A stretch of DNA of 64,000 bases from Dehalococcoidia bacterium (GTDB lineage Bacteria; Chloroflexota; Dehalococcoidia; Lucifugimonadales; SHYT01): NCBI GenBank assembly GCA_009692665.1, contig SHYT01000007.1:32054-96053 (forward strand), read 5' to 3'. The notes below the pieces were generated by a model. It had not been told where the DNA came from, searched no databases, and saw nothing but the letters and a program-made list of their open reading frames with translations. How positions within the stretch are numbered: position 1 is the first letter of the stretch; each line of letters opens with the position of its first letter. Of the stretch, positions 5,945-39,663 are shown in pieces. Both the position numbers and the translations under genes were made by a program.

Positions 5945-6018
5945 TGGGGGATCGTCTAACGGTAGGACGGCAGATTCTGGATCTGTTAGTCGTGGTTCGA
6001 ATCCACGTCCCCCAGCCA
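5945..6018 (+). tRNA. tRNA-Gln (anticodon CTG), with encoded CCA
   Basis: Manual cloverleaf: acceptor TGGGGGA/TCCCCCA, D arm GTCT..GGAC, anticodon stem GCAGA/TCTGT, loop TTCTGGA, T arm CGTGG-TTCGAAT-CCACG, discriminator G, CCA at 6016-6018. Confidence 0.9.
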
Positions 6019-14680: not shown

Positions 14681-15823
14681 ATGACAACAACTGGCGGTGT
14701 TGAGCTAAAGAGAGGGCTCAACGGCGTTTACCTAGATAACACCCTGATTAGTTATATCGATGGGAACATTGGGAAGCTTCTCTACCGTGGCTATGACATT
14801 CATGACTTGGCTGAGAAGTCCACGTTTGAAGAAGTCTTATACCTGCTTATGTACGGCAGTCTCCCCACCAAAGACCAGCTCCAGAAACATGAAGCCTTTA
14901 TGCGAGAGAATCGCGCAGTCCCCCCGCAGATATTCCAGGTTGTTGAGCTGACTAAGGAAGCGCATCCGATGGATGTACTGCGAACGGCCGTCTCCGCTCT
15001 TTCCGCTTTTGATAAGGAAGTGGATGACTTCTCACCGGACGCTACCCGTCGGAAAGGCCTGCGGCTGACTGGCCAGGCGGCCACAATCCTCGCGGGGCTC
15101 TTCCGCATCCGCAAGGGCCTGAAGCCTGTCCCGCCGAGCAAGACGTTGAACCACGCGGGCAACTTCCTCTACATGATGTTTGACAAGAACCCAGACCCGG
15201 ACGAGATGAAACTCATGGACGTCGACTTCATCCTTCACACAGACCACAGCACCAACGCATCCGCATTCGCTGCCCGCGTTACCGCTTCCACGCTGGCTGA
15301 CCTCCACTGCGCAGTCGTCTCCGGCATCGCCACACTTAAGGGCCCGCTGCACGGCGGCGCCGCCGAGGCCGTCATGAAAATGTCTATGGACATTGGCAAG
15401 CCGGAGCGCGCCGAAGAGTACGTCAAGGAACTTATCTCTCGTGGTGGCAGGATCATGGGCTTTGGCCACCGTGTATATAGGGCGGAAGACCCGCGCGCCC
15501 AGCACTTGCGTGAGCGTGCCCGCGTCCTTGGCGAGCGCCGCGGCCAGCCCGAGTGGTTCCAGATCCTCCAGGCAGTGGTCAAGGCCATGGAGCCGTACCA
15601 GAAGCGCGGCATCTTTGTCAATGTGGACTTTTACGCCGGCGCGGTCTATCACCTCCTTAATATTCCTGAGGACTTGTTCATACCAATCTTTGCCCTAGGA
15701 CGTATTCCAGGTTACGCCGTTCAGGTGCTGGAGCAGTTTGAGCACAACCAACTCATTCGCCCACTCCTCAACTATATTGGTCCAATGGACTTGCAGTATG
15801 TCCCAATGGATCAGCGCAGGTAA
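14681..15823 (+). CDS. gltA: Citrate synthase
   Basis: GFGHRVYRAEDPRA and other citrate synthase motifs. ATG at 14681 follows GGGAGG (14665-14670). The track ORF begins at 14585. Confidence 0.9.
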   Translation: MTTTGGVELKRGLNGVYLDNTLISYIDGNIGKLLYRGYDIHDLAEKSTFEEVLYLLMYGSLPTKDQLQKHEAFMRENRAVPPQIFQVVELTKEAHPMDVLRTAVSALSAFDKEVDDFSPDATRRKGLRLTGQAATILAGLFRIRKGLKPVPPSKTLNHAGNFLYMMFDKNPDPDEMKLMDVDFILHTDHSTNASAFAARVTASTLADLHCAVVSGIATLKGPLHGGAAEAVMKMSMDIGKPERAEEYVKELISRGGRIMGFGHRVYRAEDPRAQHLRERARVLGERRGQPEWFQILQAVVKAMEPYQKRGIFVNVDFYAGAVYHLLNIPEDLFIPIFALGRIPGYAVQVLEQFEHNQLIRPLLNYIGPMDLQYVPMDQRR

Positions 15824-15845
15824 AAGGGCTTTGTAGGGATTTGTA

Positions 15846-15884
15846 AAAGAAGCGGGCGTCATGTTGATGCCTGCTTCTTTTATC
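15846..15884 (+). terminator. Rho-independent terminator after citrate synthase
   Basis: Stem AAAGAAGC(G)GGC / GCCTGCTTCTTT followed by T-rich tail. Confidence 0.7.
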
Positions 15885-16423
15885 GACGCTGTTCGACATA
15901 ATGTCGATTTAGTCTAGGACCAACTGGAGTGGGCCGGATTAGCTTGTTGACTTTCAACCTGCTTGCCTTGCCATTTTTCCATTCCGAAAATTTAGAGCAC
16001 TACGAATTCCTGACTGTACTCTAGGGCTCCGCTTGAATTGTTGGAAATTTTCAAGCCGGGTCTGCGAGAGGTAATGGTTACAGAGTGGCCATCGGAGTCG
16101 AATAAGAGTGAGGATCTACGGGGGGTACGCAAGGTCTGGCGCGGCAAGCGTTTGTGCAGTGTAGTTTGATCGGCTTTACATATGGGCCTCGAAATAGGGG
16201 GCCTATTTCCTAAACCTTGAGTAAGAAGTAGTCCCCAAGATTCAGCTACCACGCGTGAAGTAGTACCAGCATCTTTCCAAGTAGTCGCGCTGTCTATAGT
16301 TATGTAGCCAAGCGTAGATACCCTTCTCACCCAACTCACATGCTTTGTATCGTACATAACAGCTATAGTGCGAACCTGCTACGCCTGCTCGGACTGGAAG
16401 GAACGGCACCGTTATCGGCTCTA

Positions 16424-16542
16424 TCATGGTGATTTCCTCGTCGACAAACCCGAACAACCGGATTACTGACGGTGTTTGGCGCGTTGGGGTGGATGTTACG
16501 CCTGGGCTTTATCAGACCACCACCTCTGGATGCTATTGGGCG
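16424..16542 (+). repeat. Partial duplicate (about 119 nt) of 16984-17105
   Basis: Shared TCATGGTGATTTCCTC... start. Identical 29-nt core GACGGTGTTTGGCGCGTTGGGGTGGATGT at 16468-16496 and 17031-17059. Both copies end in ..ATTGGGCG. Confidence 0.85.
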
Positions 16543-16596
16543 CGTGCTCTTGCTGCCATTATGCCGCCGCTGCGGACTGCGTTTGCTGGACTCTGA
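16426..16596 (+). pseudogene. Truncated paralog fragment of the C-terminal domain of the 16737..17246 protein
   Basis: 56-codon ORF MVISSSTNPNNRITDGVWRVGVDVTPGLYQTTTSGCYWAR... loses similarity after CYWAR. Confidence 0.35.
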
Positions 16597-16736
16597 TAGG
16601 TCGCCAGTTCGCGGCGGCGGTGCATATCATCGGGGGTGCCTGCACCACAAGTGCACCCGCTATTCGAGGAACCTCGGAAGCCATTTCCGCTGAATGGTGG
16701 TAGAGTACGCGCGACAGTTGACTGAGGAGAAAAGCA

Positions 16737-17246
16737 ATGGCGGGACTAAAGGCCTTTGAGAAAGAGCATCCTATCGTTTTCTGGATTTTGGCGGCAGTCT
16801 TCTCTCTGATGCTGCTTGCGATGTTGCTATCGGCCTTCAATCCCACCGCTCGCGATATCAACGCGGCTGTGCAACAAGAGGTTACCAGGCAGGTCAATGC
16901 ATTGCCGCGCCAGACGCAAGGGCCACAGGGTGCATCAGGTTTACAAGGGCCCAAAGGCGACAAGGGGGAAAGGGGCGATCCATTCATGGTGATTTCCTCA
17001 CCGACACCGACCGCGAATAACCGTATTGCGGACGGTGTTTGGCGCGTTGGGGTGGATGTACAGCCCGGCCTATATCAGACTGCTACCTCAGGATGTTATT
17101 GGGCGAGGCTGCGGAACTTCAGCGACAATTCCGGAGAAATTCTTGGGAACGGAAACACACCGGGTCCGACCGTTGTGCGGATTTTAACCACAGACGCAGG
17201 ATTCCAGTCATCACGCTGCATTGCCTGGGTGCGCGTCGGGGACTAG
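16737..17246 (+). CDS. Membrane-anchored protein with collagen-like GXY repeats and a Cys-containing C-terminal domain
   Basis: GAGGAG RBS. TM helix IVFWILAAVFSLMLLAMLL. Seven GXY triplets GPQGASGLQGPKGDKGERGDP (16920-16982). C-terminal DGVWRVGVDVQPGLYQT..GCYWARL..SSRCIAW. Confidence 0.7.
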   Translation: MAGLKAFEKEHPIVFWILAAVFSLMLLAMLLSAFNPTARDINAAVQQEVTRQVNALPRQTQGPQGASGLQGPKGDKGERGDPFMVISSPTPTANNRIADGVWRVGVDVQPGLYQTATSGCYWARLRNFSDNSGEILGNGNTPGPTVVRILTTDAGFQSSRCIAWVRVGD

Positions 17247-33211: not shown

Positions 33212-34297
33212 TTACGCCGGCTTGTACCGCGCCGCCCGCATAGGCTTCGACGCACGCACCTGCCGGATGCGCTCCTCCGCCACAAAGTCCGCGGCCCTGG
33301 CGGTAGGAATGCCCTGCTGTTTGGAGACGCTGATAACCTTAGCGACCGCGTCGTACAGCGTCATCACGTGCTCGCGTGCTGCCTCTTCTGAGTACCGTTG
33401 CCCTATCTCGTGGGAGATGTTAATGACGCCGCCTGCGTTAATGACGTAGTCCGGCGCATAGAGAATCCCGTGTTTGTGAAGGTCGTCGCCGTCGGCAGCG
33501 GTGGCAAGCTGGTTGTTCGCACTGCCCGCTATCACCTTGCATTTCAGCCGTGGAATTGTGTTGCTGTTCATTGTGGCCCCTAACGCGCACGGCGAAAACA
33601 CCTGGCACGGCGCGTCGTAGATGGCCTCCGGGTCTTCGACAATCTCGCAGCCCATCGCCGCAGCACGTTTTAGCGCGTCCTTGTTAATGTCCGTGACGAT
33701 CATGTGCGCGCCCGCCGTCTTCAAGTGCTCCGCCATGTAGCCGGCCACCTTGCCGAAGCCCTGAATCGCCACCGTCATGCCGCGCATGGAGTCCGTGAAG
33801 TACGCTTCCTTCACGCATGCCAGCATGCCCCGGTAAATCCCAAGTCCCGTAGCATCCGAAGGATCGCCGCTGCCGCCCATGGAGCGCGGGAGCCCGGTGA
33901 CATGCGATGTGACCTGGCTGATGATGACCATATCATTAGTGGTGGAGCCCACATCTTCGGTGGTAATGTACCGCCCACCGAGCGTGTCCACATACCGCGC
34001 AAAGATGCGCAGCATCGCTTCGTTCTTCTGCGTGCGGGGATCTGCCCAAATGAGCGCTTTGCCGCCGCCCAGGTGGAGGCCCGCAGCCGAGTTCTTGTAC
34101 GTCATGCCGCGCGCCAGCCGCAGCACGTCCGTGATAGCGTCCTCTTCCGTCTTGTGCGGCCAAATGCGGCACCCGCCCAGGGATGGCCCCAGTGTGGTGT
34201 CATGCACCGCGATGAACGCCTTGAGCCCGGTGCCCTTGTCCACGCAGACCAGGAGCTGCTCATAATCGTACTGGGCCATCGTCTCTGTAATAGCCAT
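33212..34297 (-). CDS. Leucine dehydrogenase (Glu/Leu/Phe/Val dehydrogenase family)
   Basis: GLHLGGGKA catalytic lysine context and Rossmann GFGKVAG. Confidence 0.85.
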   Translation of the reverse strand: MAITETMAQYDYEQLLVCVDKGTGLKAFIAVHDTTLGPSLGGCRIWPHKTEEDAITDVLRLARGMTYKNSAAGLHLGGGKALIWADPRTQKNEAMLRIFARYVDTLGGRYITTEDVGSTTNDMVIISQVTSHVTGLPRSMGGSGDPSDATGLGIYRGMLACVKEAYFTDSMRGMTVAIQGFGKVAGYMAEHLKTAGAHMIVTDINKDALKRAAAMGCEIVEDPEAIYDAPCQVFSPCALGATMNSNTIPRLKCKVIAGSANNQLATAADGDDLHKHGILYAPDYVINAGGVINISHEIGQRYSEEAAREHVMTLYDAVAKVISVSKQQGIPTARAADFVAEERIRQVRASKPMRAARYKPA

Positions 34298-34392
34298 CGC
34301 GCACTCCTTATATCAGCACGCTTTCAGCCCGCAGGACGCTCTTAAGAAAATAGTAACACGCAGGACGCTGGCCTATTGGACTAGTGCGCGCT

Positions 34393-34428
34393 TAAAAAGA
34401 GAGAACCCCTAAAGTCAGGGGTTCTCTG
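34393..34428 (-). terminator. Rho-independent terminator after the VOC gene
   Basis: On the minus strand: AGAGAACCCCT-loop-AGGGGTTCTCT followed by CTTTTTAAG. Confidence 0.75.
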
Positions 34429-34446
34429 GACTAGCCGTTTCGGACG

Positions 34447-34830
34447 CTAACTAGGCTTTGGCGGTGCGGGCGCTCGCTGGAAGACGATGTGCTCGTTGCC
34501 CTCGGGGTCCGCAAACGCGATGTAGTCGTAGCCAGGGCCCTTCTTAATGTCCGTCAGAACTTTCACGCCTTTCATCTTCAGGTCTTGCATTGCCGCCTGA
34601 ATGTTCTCAGTTGTGAAGTTCACCATGAGCGGCGGGTGCCCCTTGGCCTTTGCGAACGCCGGAAAATTCGGCCCCTCCAGCGCAAACCGCACCGCGCCGG
34701 TGTCGAACATCGCGTATTCGTGCGCCTCGTCCACCATGCGCGGCTTCAGGCCCACCTTGTCGCGGTAGAACTCCAACTGCTGCTTCCAGTTGTCCACCCG
34801 CAGTGTGACAATGCCCACTTGGCTGACCAT
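34447..34830 (-). CDS. VOC (glyoxalase/bleomycin resistance) family protein
   Basis: 127 aa with the beta-alpha-beta-beta-beta pattern typical of VOC proteins. Confidence 0.7.
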   Translation of the reverse strand: MVSQVGIVTLRVDNWKQQLEFYRDKVGLKPRMVDEAHEYAMFDTGAVRFALEGPNFPAFAKAKGHPPLMVNFTTENIQAAMQDLKMKGVKVLTDIKKGPGYDYIAFADPEGNEHIVFQRAPAPPKPS

Positions 34831-35020
34831 CTCTCACCTCACCCATTTGGTTGCGCGGCACGATGCCGTGCGGGGGACAGTATACTGGAAGAGAGCGATC
34901 CGTGGAACCGATGATTCGGACAGAGTGCTATGCTACCAATAAGCCAATTTAGTGTCCCTGACCTCTACAATCCAAGTGCAATCGCATCAGCGCTTTTTGT
35001 TTGGGGAGGCATAAAACAGA

Positions 35021-35221
35021 ATGGTTCGAATCGTATCCAATGAAACTCTCCGTAATCGAACCGGATACTTGGCCGATATCGACCTCGACTCGATTCAAGC
35101 CCAAAGTCGCTACTTCCCCCTGCTGGAGGCTCATTTCAAAGCCAGAGCCAGCGTTTCTAACGACCTGCCTGCTCAGCACTCAATACGGCCCAGGCGTGTC
35201 ATAGCCGCCCTCTACCGTTGA
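35021..35221 (+). CDS. small hypothetical ORF, possibly the frameshifted 5' part of the next gene
   Basis: ATG 11 nt after GGGGAGG (35003-35009). 66 aa. The next ORF's frame is already open from 35205. Confidence 0.3.
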   Translation: MVRIVSNETLRNRTGYLADIDLDSIQAQSRYFPLLEAHFKARASVSNDLPAQHSIRPRRVIAALYR

Positions 35222-35258
35222 TGTTCATTTCCCGCTGAGTCCATTAGCCATTGAGCGG

Positions 35259-35822
35259 TTGGATCAATTACTTCGAGGTTCGCATTTGAATATGACGATC
35301 ATTGCCGCTGGGATCGGCGAGTACCACGTTAACGGTCAGATGCTTCCTTTCCAATTCGAACCAGTCAGCGTATCAAAACGCATTTCAGTGACAGACTGGA
35401 TCACGAATGTGCTTGAGCCAATTGGGTGGAATAAATTTGTGAACCTGTCATTTTCGATTCCTACCGTAGAGTCCGCTGGGTTCTCTGACGCTCTGCGTCA
35501 ACTAGAGAATGTGAATAGTCGTTATCTCCAAGGGGACGACAGAGGAGTCCTTGCAGCGGCGTATGACGCAATAGATCCAGTAATGTTTTCTCAGAGACAA
35601 ACCCTCCTGCAGTGTGTGTCAAATCCAAGTAAACGCGCGGCAATAGACTCCCTAATTGAAACTGCCCATCGGTTCTTCAATGGAGGGAGACATGTGCCTG
35701 AAGAGCGCAGAACTCGAGGAGGGTTTGAAGTAGACCATATCGATGGCGAGTACGCACGTCTGCTTTCCGGTATTACTGGCGCATATTTAGCTAAACGCTT
35801 AGAGAGTGTGAGACCTGGATGA
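35259..35822 (+). CDS. hypothetical protein, translationally coupled to NurA
   Basis: 187 aa (TTG 35259, or ATG 35292). Low-GC coding DNA. Its stop overlaps the NurA ATG (ATGA at 35819-35822). No family recognised. Confidence 0.6.
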   Translation: MDQLLRGSHLNMTIIAAGIGEYHVNGQMLPFQFEPVSVSKRISVTDWITNVLEPIGWNKFVNLSFSIPTVESAGFSDALRQLENVNSRYLQGDDRGVLAAAYDAIDPVMFSQRQTLLQCVSNPSKRAAIDSLIETAHRFFNGGRHVPEERRTRGGFEVDHIDGEYARLLSGITGAYLAKRLESVRPG

Positions 35823-37039
35823 GTCTTGACCTATCCCGCACCATCGCGCAGGTCCGCGACCTCGCCACGCGCATGCGCGGCACCCGTGACGATCGCGCTT
35901 CCCGTCTGCGCCGCGCCGTTCAAGTCCTCTCCGGCTCCGAGCGCGAGGCGCTGAAAGACCGCGCCAAGCGAGCCGAGAACAAGACCTTCTTCCTCGCCGC
36001 GGAACCCCTTGGCGAGCCGGGTGAACGCCATGCCGCGCCCCACTTGCCGCCGGATTACACCGCGCTGTCCGTCGACGGTTCTCACATAGATGTGGAGCGC
36101 CACCTCGCCGCGCGCTGTTACGTTATCAACATCGGCGCGTGCATGCTCACCTATGGCCTGCACCCGGACGCCACGCTCGTAAACGAGCCCACACTTTATG
36201 CCACAGACGAGCAGCTTGCCATCCGAAACAACCAGGACGCTACGCAAGAGGAGCATATCCAGGGCGCTCTGCTCGGCATCAAGCGCACTGTGGAGGAGTT
36301 CAAAGCCCTTGCCGATTTCGCCAAGCTCGCGCCCGCTACACCCACCGTCGCCTTCGTGGACGGCTCGCTCATCCTGTGGGAGCTCGGTGGCTCGCCGAAC
36401 GGCCGCTTTCCTGATTATGTCCGCAGCGCGATGCTCCAGTACGGCATGCTCCCCGCGTTTGACGCACTCCGCAAGCTCTCCTCCTCGGCGCGCCCGCTGG
36501 CCCTCTGCGCCTACGTCAGCCTCCCCAACGGCAGCGAGGTCGCCAACACCACGCGACTCGCCCTCTGCACGTTCCCCGTTGCCGACTGCCGTCTGCACTG
36601 CAAAGCAATCAAGCCTGGCCAGCGCCAATGCGACGCCGTCCACAACCTCGTAGATCGTGACCTCATGGTCGAGATGCTCGTCCCCGGCGAGCGCTCTGCC
36701 ATATTCCGCACGCGCCTCGCCATGGTTCGCGAGTATGGCGACGACCACCAGGTCTGCTTCTTCTACCTCAACGTCGGCAACGAAATTGCCCGCATCGAAA
36801 TCCCCCAGTGGGTCGCCGACGACCGCGCCCTGCTCGACCTCGTGCACGCCGCCGCGCTCGACCAGGCCCGCCGTGGCGATGGCTACCCACCTGTCATCCA
36901 GGAAGCGCATGAGCAAGCCGTCATCAGCACAGAAGACCGCGCCCAGTTTCGCATGATGGTGGACGAAGCACTGGAGGGTGAACGCCTCCCAGCGTACACC
37001 TCTGAGAAACAACGCTCCAAACGCTTTCGCTGGGTTTAG
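35819..37039 (+). CDS. nurA: NurA-domain 5'-3' nuclease
   Basis: SVDGSHIDV and AFVDGSLILWEL aspartate motifs, and C-terminal GDGYPPVIQEAHEQAVIS. Confidence 0.8.
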   Translation: MSLDLSRTIAQVRDLATRMRGTRDDRASRLRRAVQVLSGSEREALKDRAKRAENKTFFLAAEPLGEPGERHAAPHLPPDYTALSVDGSHIDVERHLAARCYVINIGACMLTYGLHPDATLVNEPTLYATDEQLAIRNNQDATQEEHIQGALLGIKRTVEEFKALADFAKLAPATPTVAFVDGSLILWELGGSPNGRFPDYVRSAMLQYGMLPAFDALRKLSSSARPLALCAYVSLPNGSEVANTTRLALCTFPVADCRLHCKAIKPGQRQCDAVHNLVDRDLMVEMLVPGERSAIFRTRLAMVREYGDDHQVCFFYLNVGNEIARIEIPQWVADDRALLDLVHAAALDQARRGDGYPPVIQEAHEQAVISTEDRAQFRMMVDEALEGERLPAYTSEKQRSKRFRWV

Positions 37040-37348
37040 CTCGTACCCGCGGCAACTGGTGAACGCCGAGGCCATCACGTCTTGCGATGTGCCGGACGAG
37101 CAGGCGCCGCAGTAAAGTAGTTGGTGCAGGCCACGCCGTCCGCCGTTTTCGTTTGTTGTGACAACTTCCCGTTGGCGGTTGCCAGCAAGTACGATACACT
37201 TCCCCAGGGCGTCGCGATAGCTCTTCAATGTACTCGCGGTTTGGTAGGCCCCTGCGCCATCCCAGGAAATGTAAGAACAGCAGAACATTTTGCGGGAGGC
37301 GCAGGAGTCACCAAGATATACGCCTCATAGGCCGAGGGGGATTTGCGC

Positions 37349-38023
37349 ATGACCGGCAAAGTCGCTGAGGTAGTGGAATCGTCCTCCACCTTCTTCGTCG
37401 CCCAGTGCTACCGCCTCTATGACGCCCCCCCGCTCGGTGCCCTCGTGCGCGCCGGCGATCCCTCGGCTACGCTCGGGACAGGCTCTGATCTCATCTACGG
37501 CATCGTCTGCAACGTCGCCACCGGCCCGCTCGATACCGGCCGCCGCGTCCTCCCACGCGGCGAGGCTGAGGAAAGCGAAGAGGACCTCTACCGCGAAAAC
37601 CCCCAGCTTTCGCACGTCCTTGCCACTCGCTTCGAAGCCGCCATCGTCGCGCACTCCACTAAAGATGGCCGGGGCAAAGACGGCCTGCGCCAGGGCCTGC
37701 CGCCGCTCCCGCCGCACGTCCACGCCTTCGTCTTCCCGTGCGAGCCGTCAGAGCTCGCCCAGTTCGCCAAAGACTTCCGCTTTCTCCACCTCCTCCTCAC
37801 CGCCCCCAACCTTAGCGGCCCCGCCGCTGACGAAGTCATCTCCGCCTGCCTTCGCGCTTTGGTCGCCTCGAACAAAGCACAGAATCCTGTCCCGATCACT
37901 TCGGGAGGCAAGGCTCCCACAGACGAGCGAGCGCTCCTCCTCCAAGCCGGCCGCGCCCTCGCCCGTGAGCTCACCGACGACGCCCACCGTCTGAACACCC
38001 TCCTGCGCGGCCTGACGCAATGA
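37349..38023 (+). CDS. hypothetical protein with a HAS-barrel-like N-terminus, translationally coupled to HerA
   Basis: ATG 8 nt after GAGGGGG. N-terminal GKVAEVVESSSTFFVAQCY..PLGALVRAG..IYGIVCNV resembles a HerA-type barrel. ATGA overlap with the next gene (38020-38023). Confidence 0.6.
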   Translation: MTGKVAEVVESSSTFFVAQCYRLYDAPPLGALVRAGDPSATLGTGSDLIYGIVCNVATGPLDTGRRVLPRGEAEESEEDLYRENPQLSHVLATRFEAAIVAHSTKDGRGKDGLRQGLPPLPPHVHAFVFPCEPSELAQFAKDFRFLHLLLTAPNLSGPAADEVISACLRALVASNKAQNPVPITSGGKAPTDERALLLQAGRALARELTDDAHRLNTLLRGLTQ

Positions 38024-39663
38024 CCACCAACCACACCCCCAACAACGGCACCTACATGGGCATGGTCATCGGCGGCTCCCTTGAGGCTGGCGTCGAAGTC
38101 AAGCTCGCCCCCACTGCCTCCGTCGAAGACGTGAAGGTCGGCACCTTCATGACCCTCGCCGGCGAGCGCTCCCGCTTCATGGGCCTCGTCACCGACGTCC
38201 AGCTCCGCGCCACCGATCCCGCCTTCGCCGCCGTCACCCCTGACCCGGACGACACCCTCTCCGCGCAGGTCATGGCCGGCACCACCGCCTACGCCGTCGT
38301 CAAAGTGCGCCCCCAAATCGTCCTGCCCGAAATCGCGGGCGACGTGAAACCAGGAGAGGACGTTGAGCTCTCCCCCGCCAAGACCATCCCCGCGCACTTC
38401 TCCCGCGCCTTCACCGCCTCCGAGACCGACATCGGCATCGTGTTCGGCAAAGAGGACGCGCGCCACTTTTACGTCGGCAACCCGCTCGACCTGGAGGCCA
38501 AGGTCTGCCTGGACATGCAGCGGTTCGTGGAGCGCAGCAGCGGCGTCTTCGGCAAAAGCGGCACCGGCAAAAGCTTCCTCACCCGCCTTGTGCTCATCGG
38601 CATGGCGCAAAAGACCAGCGCCGTCAGCCTCGTCTTCGACATGCACAGCGAGTACGGCTGGTCCGGCCAGGACACCGACCGCTCCCGCCAGGTCAAGGGC
38701 CTCAAGCAGCTCTTCCCCTCACGCGTCGCTGTCTTCACACTGGACGAAGAGAGCACCCGCCGCAAAGGCATCACCCCGGACGGCGTCGTCCGCATCGGCT
38801 ACGACCAGGTGGAGCCGGAAGACATCCAGCTTCTCGCGGAGACCTTGAACCTCACGCCCAACGCTGTCCAGGCCGCCTACCGCCTACCGCGCTACAACGG
38901 CTGGGGCAAGCAGTGGCTGGAAAAGTTCCTTGAGGTCGAGCCGCCGCAGCTCCAGGACATTGCCATCCAGCTCAGCGAAAGCCCCATGACCATCGAAGCC
39001 CTCCACCGCCGCCTGGAACGTCTCAAACGCCTCCCGTTCATCGGCACCTTCCCGGACGAGCAGGCCATCCACGGCATCCTAGACTCCCTCAAGCGCGGCC
39101 GCCACGTCGTCCTCGAGTTCGGCCGCTACCGCAACTCGCTCGACGCCTACATCCTCGTCGCCAGCGTCCTCACCCGCCGCATCCACGACCACTGGACCCA
39201 GCAGGTCGAGCACGCCCAGGGCGACAGCGCCAAAGAGCCGCCCCCGCTCGTCATCGTCATTGAAGAGGCGCACAAGTTCCTCAGCCCGGACGTCGCCTCC
39301 CAGACCACCTTCGGCACCATCGCCCGCGAGCTGCGCAAGTACAAGGTCACCCTGCTTGTCATCGACCAGCGCCCCGGCTCCATCGACTCTGAGGTCATGA
39401 GCCAGATCGGCACCAAAATCGTCTGCCTGCTCGACAACGAAAAGGACATCGACGCCGCCCTCTCCGGCGTCGCCGGCGCCAGAGCGTTACGCGAAGTGCT
39501 GGCGCGCATGGAGTCTAAGCAGCAAGCCCTCTTCCTGGGCCACGCGTTGCCGATGCCCGTCGTCGTCCGCATCCGTGAATACGGAAGTGAAGACTCCTAC
39601 CGCCAACTCCTCCAGCCGACTACGGCGCGGCGTAAAGACGGCGGCGACGAGCTATTTGGGTGA
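38020..39663 (+). CDS. herA: HerA-like (DUF87) hexameric ATPase/helicase
   Basis: N-terminal barrel, Walker A GKSGTGKSFL, Walker B LVIVIEEAHKF, C-terminal LLVIDQRPGSID. Confidence 0.85.
   Translation: MTTNHTPNNGTYMGMVIGGSLEAGVEVKLAPTASVEDVKVGTFMTLAGERSRFMGLVTDVQLRATDPAFAAVTPDPDDTLSAQVMAGTTAYAVVKVRPQIVLPEIAGDVKPGEDVELSPAKTIPAHFSRAFTASETDIGIVFGKEDARHFYVGNPLDLEAKVCLDMQRFVERSSGVFGKSGTGKSFLTRLVLIGMAQKTSAVSLVFDMHSEYGWSGQDTDRSRQVKGLKQLFPSRVAVFTLDEESTRRKGITPDGVVRIGYDQVEPEDIQLLAETLNLTPNAVQAAYRLPRYNGWGKQWLEKFLEVEPPQLQDIAIQLSESPMTIEALHRRLERLKRLPFIGTFPDEQAIHGILDSLKRGRHVVLEFGRYRNSLDAYILVASVLTRRIHDHWTQQVEHAQGDSAKEPPPLVIVIEEAHKFLSPDVASQTTFGTIARELRKYKVTLLVIDQRPGSIDSEVMSQIGTKIVCLLDNEKDIDAALSGVAGARALREVLARMESKQQALFLGHALPMPVVVRIREYGSEDSYRQLLQPTTARRKDGGDELFG

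What the first reader, a model, noticed from the sequence alone, without database searches (positions are those of the whole stretch)
34870..35822. Sharp compositional break exactly at the ATGA junction between the 187-aa ORF and NurA
I counted G+C by hand on 60-nt lines. Lines 35281-35520 give 31, 27, 24 and 31 G+C (40-52%). Line 35881-35940 inside NurA gives 42/60 (70%). The low-GC block starts in the VOC/NurA intergenic region and ends at the stop of the 187-aa ORF, and that stop overlaps the NurA start codon. A compositionally foreign gene that is nonetheless translationally coupled to a native-looking high-GC gene suggests a recent insertion or replacement of the NurA partner module.
Basis: seen in the sequence. 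Interest (0 to 1): 0.6.

Follow-up and report, generated by a model that had tools for sequence, protein, structure and literature searches.

The report
Broken foreign gene upstream of nurA
The low-GC block just before the NurA gene is real, but it is the broken remnant of a horizontally acquired gene of unknown function that landed in a variable spot, not a new partner of the NurA-HerA DNA-repair machine.

Summary
The compositional break is confirmed. Bases 34921-35818 are 49% G+C in a 59% window, and NurA is 64.5%. The largest 600-nt GC step in the 64 kb lies at the NurA start. The difference sits at third codon positions: GC3 is 0.44, against a mean of 0.71 for 49 long ORFs. It therefore reflects codon usage, not amino-acid content.

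The "187-aa ORF" is not a whole gene. It is the C-terminal two-thirds of a ~290-aa, two-domain family with no Pfam, NCBIfam, PADLOC or PHROGs match (293 representatives found). The N-terminus survives as a 66-aa ORF (35021-35221) in another frame, and 29 profile positions are missing at 35215/35217.

No family member occurs in 83 orthologous NurA loci. There the upstream neighbour varies (SelB, GIY-YIG, DUF429, hydrolase, HEPN and others). The conserved partners lie downstream: a ~200-aa protein and HerA. Five of the eight other family contexts examined carry mobile-element or defence genes, and copies from the closest subfamily are AT-richer than their hosts.

The ATGA overlap comes from NurA's own conserved Met-Ser start. 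Foreign origin and local replacement are supported; a "NurA partner module" is not. This is an ordinary horizontally acquired gene remnant.

The parts
34921..35020 (+). Low-GC upstream region that came with the foreign gene. It includes a GGGGAGG Shine-Dalgarno-like run at 35003-35009, 11 nt before the ATG at 35021.
   Evidence: 30-nt GC windows fall from 0.57-0.60 to 0.33-0.53 from about 34921 onward; sequence read. No sigma-70-like promoter or terminator was found by the consensus scan.
35021..35221 (+). 66-aa ORF: the N-terminal fragment of the ancestral ~290-aa family gene (start of the beta-sandwich domain). It ends at a TGA created by the frame change.
   Evidence: tblastn places P0002 aa 21-67 at 35075-35215, E 2.5e-10. 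It matches positions 13-54 of a family HMM built without the window sequence, E 3.4e-9. The N-terminal alignment MVRIVSNETL.. versus MWITTDENL.. is.
35215..35217 (+). Deletion and frameshift junction. About 29-30 codons of the family (P0002 residues 68-97; strands E77-83, E90-92 and the start of E96-103 of the beta-sandwich) are missing, and the reading frame changes.
   Evidence: tblastn frame 3 ends at 35215 and frame 1 starts at 35217. HMM positions 55-83 are absent. Secondary structure comes from the AF2 model of P0002. The junction is identical in the independent assembly L011.
35205..35822 (+). C-terminal part of the family gene: the end of the beta-sandwich plus the whole helical domain. 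The frame is open from 35205. The callable ORFs are TTG 35259 (187 aa) or ATG 35292 (176 aa, which is P0001). The stop TGA at 35820-35822 overlaps the NurA ATG.
   Evidence: HMM positions 84-285, 230 bits, E 3.6e-72. All 24 columns invariant among the close homologues are retained. GC3 is 0.44-0.45. No Pfam, NCBIfam or PADLOC hit.
35808..35818 (+). Right-hand junction between foreign and native DNA. Family homology runs to 35807 and native NurA starts at 35819, so at most 11 nt of native NurA leader can remain.
   Evidence: End of the tblastn and HMM alignments. The conserved NurA N-terminus MSLDLS is shown.
35819..37039 (+). nurA (406 aa), native high-GC gene and first conserved gene of the NurA / ~200-aa / HerA module.
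   Evidence: PF09376 at 8e-23. 100% identical to an NCBI Dehalococcoidia MAG NurA, with full-length orthologues of 400-410 aa. GC3 0.79.
37343..38023 (+). 226-aa protein conserved between NurA and HerA (weak HAS-barrel similarity). Its stop overlaps the herA start.
   Evidence: Weak PF09378 hit, E 0.031. Orthologues in L008-L010 at 48-57% identity. Present just upstream of HerA in 34 of 49 orthologous loci with room downstream.
38020..39663 (+). herA (547 aa), native high-GC gene.
   Evidence: PF01935 DUF87 at 1e-26 and PADLOC/NCBIfam HerA models below their curated cut-offs. GC3 0.89.
34447..34830 (-). Glyoxalase/VOC gene, the native left flank. It is syntenic with the closest relative.
   Evidence: PF00903. 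64% identical to the L008 glyoxalase in the same relative position. GC3 0.81.

Best explanation
A ~0.9-kb piece of foreign DNA (about 34921-35818) sits directly against the start codon of nurA in this Dehalococcoidia genome. It carries one gene with its own ribosome-binding site. That gene belongs to an uncharacterised ~290-aa family with an N-terminal beta-sandwich and a C-terminal helical domain bearing a conserved G-R-H ... D-A motif. The family often travels with mobile elements and defence genes.

The DNA arrived by horizontal transfer from a lower-GC donor. It landed in an interval between the glyoxalase gene and nurA whose content differs between relatives; the closest relative holds four other genes there, including SelB and GIY-YIG.

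After arrival the gene lost about 29 codons out of frame. What remains is a 66-aa N-terminal ORF and a 176/187-aa C-terminal ORF.

The C-terminal ORF runs on until the first in-frame stop. That stop is the TGA formed by nurA's own conserved ATG-AGT (Met-Ser), which produces the ATGA 'coupling'. The break is sharp because at most 11 nt separate the end of family homology from the native nurA start.

Shown: the composition and codon contrast, the split and deletion, the absence of the family from orthologous loci, the variability of the upstream neighbour, and the origin of the TGA.

Inferred: the direction and recency of transfer. Also inferred: that nurA now depends on transcription, and perhaps translational re-initiation, coming through the remnant.
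For: Composition:
- GC is 49% against 59% for the window and 64.5% for NurA. This is the lowest 950-nt window and the largest step in 64 kb.
- GC3 is 0.436, the lowest of 49 ORFs (mean 0.715, sd 0.074), with normal GC1 and GC2.

Broken gene:
- P0002 aa 21-67 map to 35075-35215 in one frame and aa 98-300 to 35217-35807 in another.
- An HMM built without the window row matches positions 13-54 and 84-285; positions 55-83 are missing.
- Full-length family members are 280-300 aa; 293 representatives have E<=1e-3.
- An independent assembly is identical.

Not a NurA partner:
- The family HMM hits 0 of 83 orthologous NurA loci.
- No NurA or HerA was found in the flanks of the family loci scanned by tblastn, and none is among the genes called at the other family loci.

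Variable upstream neighbour of NurA:
- GIY-YIG, DUF429, hydrolase, SelB, SufBD, CutA1, TenA-like, HEPN, cation efflux and HIT.
- Synteny with L008 holds on both sides (AP endonuclease, Zincin, glyoxalase | NurA, ~200-aa protein, HerA, PriA) but not in the interval between.

TGA origin:
- The NurA N-terminus MSLDLS is conserved.
- L009 starts ATGAGC. L010 starts GTGAGC, and an unrelated hydrolase gene ends on that TGA.

Mobile character of the family:
- Neighbours include HicAB with IS elements, a type III R-M pair with ParB, an integrase, ArdC with a Dam methylase, and two transposases.
- Close homologues are 6-11 GC points below their flanks.

The low GC is inherited, not decay: all family-invariant residues are intact over about 200 codons.
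Against: No integrase, transposase, tRNA or convincing flanking repeat marks the block. The 10-nt repeat at 34852 and 35874 has its second copy inside conserved NurA coding sequence, and matches of that length were common in the scan (12 direct-repeat families in 1.8 kb). The insertion mechanism is therefore unknown.

The donor is unidentified; the best homologue is only 46% identical.

The window has other moderately low-GC stretches that carry housekeeping genes (14.2-21.2 kb; citrate synthase, a GTPase with HflX-type domains, a solute-binding protein). Composition alone would not prove foreignness.

The intact 200-codon C-terminal frame could also mean that the C-terminal domain is still under selection. 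Distant family members in Acidimicrobiaceae have host-like GC.
Confidence: 0.8

Rival explanations
1. One reading: the 187-aa protein is a newly recruited or swapped functional partner of NurA, co-translated with it through the ATGA overlap.
For: The stop overlaps the NurA start. The C-terminal helical domain is intact, with every family-invariant residue retained. A GAGG lies 14 nt upstream of ATG 35292. In L101 the same family is split into two ORFs exactly at the domain boundary, so separate domains might be viable.
Against: The ORF is a fragment of a larger gene, with 29 beta-sandwich positions deleted and the frame broken. The family occurs in 0 of 83 orthologous NurA loci, and no NurA or HerA was found near other family members. 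The TGA belongs to NurA's conserved Met-Ser, and an unrelated gene ends on it in L010. The sequence is listed only from a Logan assembly, whereas the neighbouring NurA is listed with NCBI among its sources.
Confidence: 0.08
2. The low GC is intrinsic. It would be set by amino-acid content, or it would be an ancient native gene that keeps this composition in all relatives.
For: Close homologues are also AT-richer than their hosts, which could in principle reflect a family-specific constraint.
Against: GC1 and GC2 are ordinary and the deficit is at GC3 (0.44 against 0.71-0.89). Relatives lack the gene at this locus. Distant family members in Acidimicrobiaceae have host-like GC, 0.636 against 0.607 and 0.674 against 0.672.
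Confidence: 0.03
3. A native gene died and has since drifted towards A+T under mutation bias, so that pseudogene decay created the low GC.
For: The gene is disrupted.
Against: A fall in GC3 from about 0.75 to 0.44 would need near-saturating change. Yet 200 codons remain open and score 230 bits to the family HMM with all invariant residues kept. The upstream non-coding 100 nt is also low-GC. Intact homologues elsewhere have similarly low GC3, 0.41-0.56.
Confidence: 0.05
4. Assembly chimera: the MAG contig joins DNA from two organisms at about 35819.
For: The source is a metagenome-assembled genome, and the break is very sharp.
Against: Both flanks are syntenic with one relative: glyoxalase on the left, and NurA, the ~200-aa protein, HerA and PriA on the right. 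An independent Logan assembly spans glyoxalase, the remnant and the NurA start with 100% identity over 1729 nt.
Confidence: 0.03

Closest known systems
Horizontally acquired genomic islet or orphan cargo gene, later pseudogenised
   Same: Atypical GC and GC3, absence from the syntenic site in relatives, patchy distribution of homologues, mobile-element and defence neighbours elsewhere, and disruption after arrival.
   Different: Only ~0.9 kb with a single gene. No integrase, tRNA, IS element or direct repeats are left, so the means of entry cannot be read from the sequence.
Bacterial NurA-HerA end-resection module (Deinococcus radiodurans NurA-HerA, PMC9960219)
   Same: The adjacent native genes are NurA (PF09376) and HerA (PF01935). 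[quoted passage not shown]
   Different: The low-GC ORF is not part of that module. The Chloroflexota version also carries a conserved ~200-aa protein with weak HAS-barrel similarity between nurA and herA. This protein did not appear in my limited term search of the D. radiodurans paper.
LEA_2 / TMEM106B-luminal / ApaG-type beta-sandwich domains
   Same: The N-terminal domain of the family's AF2 model (pLDDT 91.8) matches these folds: 8b7d at E 7.8e-5 with target TM 0.45, 5hdw at E 9.6e-4, 1xo8 and 1xq4. One of 68 members gives a weak Pfam LEA_2 hit.
   Different: Sequence identity is 4-12%. Only the N-terminal half matches. No hit with E<=0.001 covers the C-terminal helical domain, which is the part that survives in the window. 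This is fold resemblance only.
Overlapping stop/start (ATGA) translational coupling in bacterial operons
   Same: The same 4-nt overlap geometry occurs between the remnant and nurA. It also occurs between the 226-aa gene and herA at 38020-38023.
   Different: At nurA the overlap is a by-product. The TGA is fixed by NurA's conserved Met-Ser(AGY), and the upstream reading frame is a broken foreign gene. Whether any coupling takes place is untested.

Membership tests
NurA-HerA operon partner | Conserved co-occurrence with NurA or HerA across genomes | tested here: not met
   The family HMM (A3) hits 0 of 83 orthologous NurA loci with up to 4-7 kb flanks. tblastn found no NurA or HerA in the family loci scanned, and none is among the genes called at the other family loci.
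NurA-HerA operon partner | Same upstream gene at the same boundary in relatives | tested here: not met
   The upstream neighbours are GIY-YIG, DUF429, hydrolase, SelB, SufBD, CutA1, TenA-like, HEPN, cation efflux, HIT or none.
Horizontally acquired DNA | Codon-level compositional deviation from the host | tested here: met
   GC3 is 0.436 against a mean of 0.715 (sd 0.074) for 49 ORFs, with normal GC1 and GC2.
Horizontally acquired DNA | Absent from the syntenic position in relatives | tested here: met
   Synteny with L008 is conserved on both sides, but the interval holds four different genes. The family was found in no orthologous locus.
Horizontally acquired DNA | Homologues patchy and linked to mobile or defence genes | tested here: met
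   Neighbours include HicAB with IS elements, type III R-M with ParB, an integrase, ArdC with Dam, and two transposases. That is 5 of 8 distinct contexts with enough flank to judge.
Horizontally acquired DNA | Insertion hallmarks: integrase, tRNA, or flanking direct or inverted repeats | tested here: not met
   No meaningful flanking repeats. The only tRNAs are at 5945 and 43349. There is no recombinase gene within the block.
Pseudogene / gene remnant | Internal loss and frame disruption relative to full-length family members | tested here: met
   HMM positions 55-83 are missing, and the two parts lie in different frames with the junction at 35215/35217. Full-length members are 280-300 aa.
Pseudogene / gene remnant | Disruption is not an assembly artefact | tested here: met
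   The independent Logan assembly L011 is 100% identical over 1729 nt. Read-level confirmation was not possible.
Pseudogene / gene remnant | No functional product | not testable with these tools
   This needs transcript, proteome or genetic data. The C-terminal ORF remains intact with conserved residues.
Translationally coupled gene pair | Stop of the upstream ORF overlaps the start of the downstream gene | tested here: met
   ATGA at 35819-35822. However, the TGA derives from NurA's conserved Met-Ser(AGY).
Translationally coupled gene pair | Downstream translation depends on upstream translation | not testable with these tools
   This requires reporter or ribosome-profiling experiments.
LEA_2 / ApaG-like beta-sandwich proteins | Significant sequence-profile match to the family model | tested here: not met
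   Only 1 of 68 members hits Pfam LEA_2, at E 0.0064. There is no sequence match to solved structures beyond chance.
LEA_2 / ApaG-like beta-sandwich proteins | Fold similarity | tested here: inconclusive
   Foldseek E values range from 7.8e-5 to 5e-3 and target TM-scores from 0.44 to 0.50, for the N-terminal domain only.

The most novel reading that the evidence does not exclude
The surviving 176-aa helical-domain ORF is not dead. After losing its beta-sandwich domain it would be kept as a stand-alone protein. Its translation would end on the nurA start codon and drive, or tune, expression of the NurA / ~200-aa / HerA end-resection module. That would be a recent exaptation of mobile-element cargo as a leader or partner of a repair complex. 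More modestly, the ~290-aa family (293 representatives, no database family, a confident two-domain model with a conserved GRH...DA motif, often in mobile or defence contexts, and repeatedly found disrupted) could be an undescribed defence or toxin-like gene.
Probability: 0.1. Interest if true: 0.45.

Novelty: new member of a known kind. Interest (0 to 1): 0.22.

Why it matters
Mostly as a clarification. A striking GC step with an ATGA overlap can look like a new operon partner. Here it is a decayed piece of foreign cargo lodged against a conserved gene.

Two side results have modest value:
- The intervals on both sides of nurA vary between Chloroflexota relatives and sometimes hold low-GC accessory genes (GIY-YIG, HEPN, this family). 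The true conserved partners are a ~200-aa protein with weak HAS-barrel similarity and HerA.
- A compact uncharacterised two-domain family is defined. It is linked to mobile and defence contexts and is often found disrupted, so it could be tested as a candidate accessory or defence gene.

The insertion leaves nurA with at most 11 nt of native leader. Its expression in this organism must therefore come through the foreign segment, which is a small natural experiment in promoter and RBS replacement.

Tried and rejected
- Pfam, NCBIfam, PADLOC and PHROGs scans of the ORF and of 68 family members gave no family.
- A profile search against PDB sequences gave only chance hits to designed helical proteins.
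- The first AF2 model, from 7 sequences, was poor (pLDDT 62) and was not used. The second, from 68 sequences, was good.
- Foldseek against PDB and viral structures matched only the N-terminal beta-sandwich, not the helical domain that survives here.
- A genome-contig scan with the single NurA protein found nothing. Alignment A3 was too diverse for pattern search. Alignment A2 gave only 4 loci.
- The promoter/terminator consensus scan of 34700-36000 found none.
- Rfam found no RNA in 34000-38500. The whole window has only two tRNAs, so the other low-GC zone is not an rRNA operon.
- The flanking-repeat search gave only short matches. I rejected the 10-nt repeat at 34852/35874 because its second copy lies inside conserved NurA codons.
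- A HEPN reading of 'R-x6-H' in HRFANGGRH was rejected, because R255 is not among the conserved columns of the wider alignment A3.
- An HD-domain reading was considered from memory and not tested.
- The NurA-to-226-aa gap (37040-37342) was compared with the 660-nt gap in L008 and shows no conservation.
- dN/dS was not attempted: the closest homologue is 46% identical, so synonymous sites are saturated.

Full report
**Observation**

The four 60-nt lines from 35281 to 35520 hold 31, 27, 24 and 31 G+C, and line 35881-35940 holds 42.
- G+C is 49.5% for 34870-35822 and 48.0% for the 187-aa ORF. It is 64.5% for NurA and 59.4% for the whole window.
- The lowest 950-nt window of the whole 64 kb starts at 34881. 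Only 0.06% of 953-nt windows are as low.
- The largest 600-nt GC up-step in the window lies at 35835, essentially at the NurA start.
- On 30-nt windows the left edge of the low-GC stretch is near 34921 rather than 34870.

The window does contain another, milder low-GC zone at 14.2-21.2 kb. It carries housekeeping genes: citrate synthase, a GTPase with HflX-type domains and a solute-binding protein.

**Where the difference lies**

The ORF's GC1 (0.58) and GC2 (0.43) look like those of its neighbours. Its GC3 is 0.436 for the 187-aa ORF (0.446 for the 176-aa version), against 0.79 for NurA, 0.79 for the 226-aa gene, 0.89 for HerA and 0.81 for the glyoxalase gene. It is the lowest of 49 long ORFs in the window, whose mean is 0.715 with sd 0.074. 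The step is therefore one of codon usage, not amino-acid content.

**What the ORF is**

It has no Pfam, NCBIfam or PADLOC match. The word-based search found only seven relatives, several of them 290-306 aa long. Three comparisons show that the ORF is a fragment.
- The 66-aa ORF at 35021-35221 matches the N-terminus of the long relatives. The frame of the 187-aa ORF, which is open from 35205, matches the rest.
- tblastn places P0002 residues 21-67 at 35075-35215 in one frame and residues 98-300 at 35217-35807 in another.
- An HMM built without the window sequence matches profile positions 13-54 and 84-285. Positions 55-83 are missing.

The low-GC block is thus one ancestral gene of about 290 aa, with its own GGGGAGG ribosome-binding site 11 nt before the ATG at 35021. 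It has lost about 29 codons out of frame. The lost stretch covers strands E77-83, E90-92 and the start of E96-103 of the N-terminal beta-sandwich in the structural model. An independent Logan assembly of run SRR8561391 spans the glyoxalase gene, the remnant and the NurA start with 100% identity, so the junctions are reproducible.

**The family**

A full HMMER scan of 1.84 billion representatives found 293 proteins at E<=1e-3, typically 280-300 aa. None of the 68 aligned members has a convincing Pfam, NCBIfam, PADLOC or PHROGs match, and the profile has no PDB sequence match.

With the 68-sequence alignment, AlphaFold2 gives a confident model (pLDDT 91.8, pTM 0.82). It has an N-terminal beta-sandwich (about residues 7-155) and a C-terminal helical domain (about 187-303). 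Foldseek matches only the beta-sandwich, to TMEM106B-luminal/LEA_2 and ApaG-type folds at low identity.

G260 and H262 are invariant across the 68 sequences. R261, D279, A280, K242 and W161 are nearly so. The biochemical function remains unknown.

The genomic contexts of family members share no common neighbour, but they often look like the mobilome:

| Locus | Neighbours |
|---|---|
| L003/L004 | HicAB plus IS elements |
| L016 | type III Mod-Res pair plus ParB |
| L020 | tyrosine recombinase |
| L013 | ArdC-like gene plus Dam methylase |
| L014 | two transposases |
| L001 | RuvB, at a contig end |
| L005 | peptidases |
| L018 | MiaA |

Close homologues are 6-11 GC points below their flanks, whereas distant Acidimicrobiaceae members are host-like.

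Several copies from the closest subfamily are also disrupted:
- a frameshift in L003/L004;
- an in-frame TGA exactly at the domain boundary in L101;
- a 53-aa remnant after gatA in L015.

**Is it a NurA partner?**

The window comes from a Dehalococcoidia MAG; its NurA is 100% identical to an NCBI entry. NurA has many full-length orthologues of 400-410 aa with a conserved N-terminus MSLDLS.
- In the three closest long contigs the conserved unit is NurA, a ~200-aa protein and HerA. The gene upstream differs each time: GIY-YIG, DUF429 or a hydrolase.
- In 80 further metagenomic orthologous loci the family HMM finds nothing. The only hits are the two fragments in the window.
- Upstream neighbours there include SelB, SufBD, CutA1, a TenA-like protein, a HEPN protein, a cation-efflux protein and a HIT protein, or there is no co-directional gene at all.
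- The ~200-aa protein and HerA follow downstream in 34 and 31 of 49 loci with room.
- tblastn found no NurA or HerA in the family loci scanned. None is among the genes called at the other family loci.

The association is therefore unique to this genome.

**Synteny and the event**

Against the closest relative (L008, 59-60% NurA identity), gene order is conserved on both sides. On the left are an AP endonuclease, a Zincin-like gene and the glyoxalase gene. On the right are NurA, the ~200-aa protein, HerA and PriA.

The glyoxalase-to-NurA interval holds four genes in L008: two unnamed genes, SelB and GIY-YIG, in about 3.7 kb. In the window it holds only the 0.99-kb remnant, and no SelB occurs anywhere in the 64 kb.

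The GC difference between the 900 nt upstream and NurA averages -0.052 (sd 0.034) over 54 orthologous loci. In the window it is -0.154. Only L065 exceeds this, where a low-GC HEPN gene sits upstream. L008's GIY-YIG gene is also low-GC. The content upstream of nurA thus differs between relatives and is sometimes strikingly AT-rich.

**The ATGA**

NurA's start is ATG AGT, encoding the conserved Met-Ser. The TGA belongs to NurA's own codons. L009 starts ATGAGC. L010 starts GTGAGC, and there an unrelated hydrolase gene ends on that same TGA.

Family homology runs to 35807 and NurA starts at 35819, so the foreign-native junction lies within 11 nt. The remnant's frame simply runs into the first available stop. 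By inference, nurA has lost its native leader and must now be transcribed, and perhaps translated by re-initiation, through the foreign segment. The consensus scan found no promoter, and this point cannot be tested here.

**Rivals**

- Decay-driven AT enrichment is unlikely. About 200 codons remain open, they score 230 bits to the family HMM, and every invariant residue is kept.
- A chimeric assembly is unlikely. Both flanks are syntenic with one relative, and an independent assembly agrees.
- A functional partner role cannot be excluded for the intact helical-domain ORF. Nothing supports it beyond the overlap.

**Verdict**

In kind this is an ordinary horizontally acquired gene remnant. The modest side interest lies in the uncharacterised family and in the variable intervals around nurA in Chloroflexota.

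Noticed in passing
window 37343-38023 (+), and L008-L010, L023-L100: A ~200-aa protein with only a weak HAS-barrel hit (E 0.031) lies immediately upstream of herA, and its stop overlaps the herA start (ATGA at 38020-38023). It is present in 34 of 49 orthologous Chloroflexota loci with room downstream. It looks like a conserved third component of this bacterial NurA-HerA module. It did not appear in my limited term search of the D. radiodurans NurA-HerA paper.
   Followed up: partly
window 37040-37342: A 303-nt gap between nurA and the 226-aa gene shows a GC dip to 0.57. It has no Rfam hit and no conservation with the 660-nt gap in L008. In other orthologous loci the distance from nurA to the ~200-aa gene ranges from about 25 nt to about 2.8 kb, so this is a second variable interval inside the module.
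   Followed up: partly
L065 141-668 and L008 6651-6938: Other relatives also carry low-GC accessory genes directly upstream of nurA. L065 has a 175-aa HEPN (RiboL-PSP-like) gene, with the upstream 900 nt at GC 0.40 against 0.575 for NurA. L008 has a small GIY-YIG gene in a stretch at GC 0.57-0.58, against about 0.72 for the neighbouring windows.
   Followed up: partly
L003/L004 7634-8564; L101 557-1468; L015 6001-6159: Other copies of the same ~290-aa family are also disrupted. There is a frameshift next to HicAB and IS elements, an in-frame TGA exactly at the domain boundary with a GTG restart 3 nt later, and a 53-aa remnant downstream of gatA in another Dehalococcoidia genome. Recurrent inactivation suggests a costly or dispensable cargo gene.
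   Followed up: partly
window 15600-16600: This is the second-lowest GC patch of the window (0.49-0.52), just after the citrate synthase gene. Its ORFs at 15992-16357 (-) and 16559-16987 (-), and the partly overlapping 16737-17246 (+), have no Pfam match. It may be another small foreign insert.
   Followed up: no
window 34831-35818 versus L008 3306-7000: The selenocysteine elongation factor SelB lies one gene upstream of nurA in L008, L009 and L010, and L008 also has a GRDB-like gene nearby. These are absent from the syntenic interval and from the whole 64-kb window. The selenoprotein block may have been lost or moved in this genome.
   Followed up: partly
window 35831-37288 (-): A 485-aa antisense ORF covers the whole of nurA. 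I take it to be the usual long shadow ORF of a high-GC gene rather than a gene.
   Followed up: no
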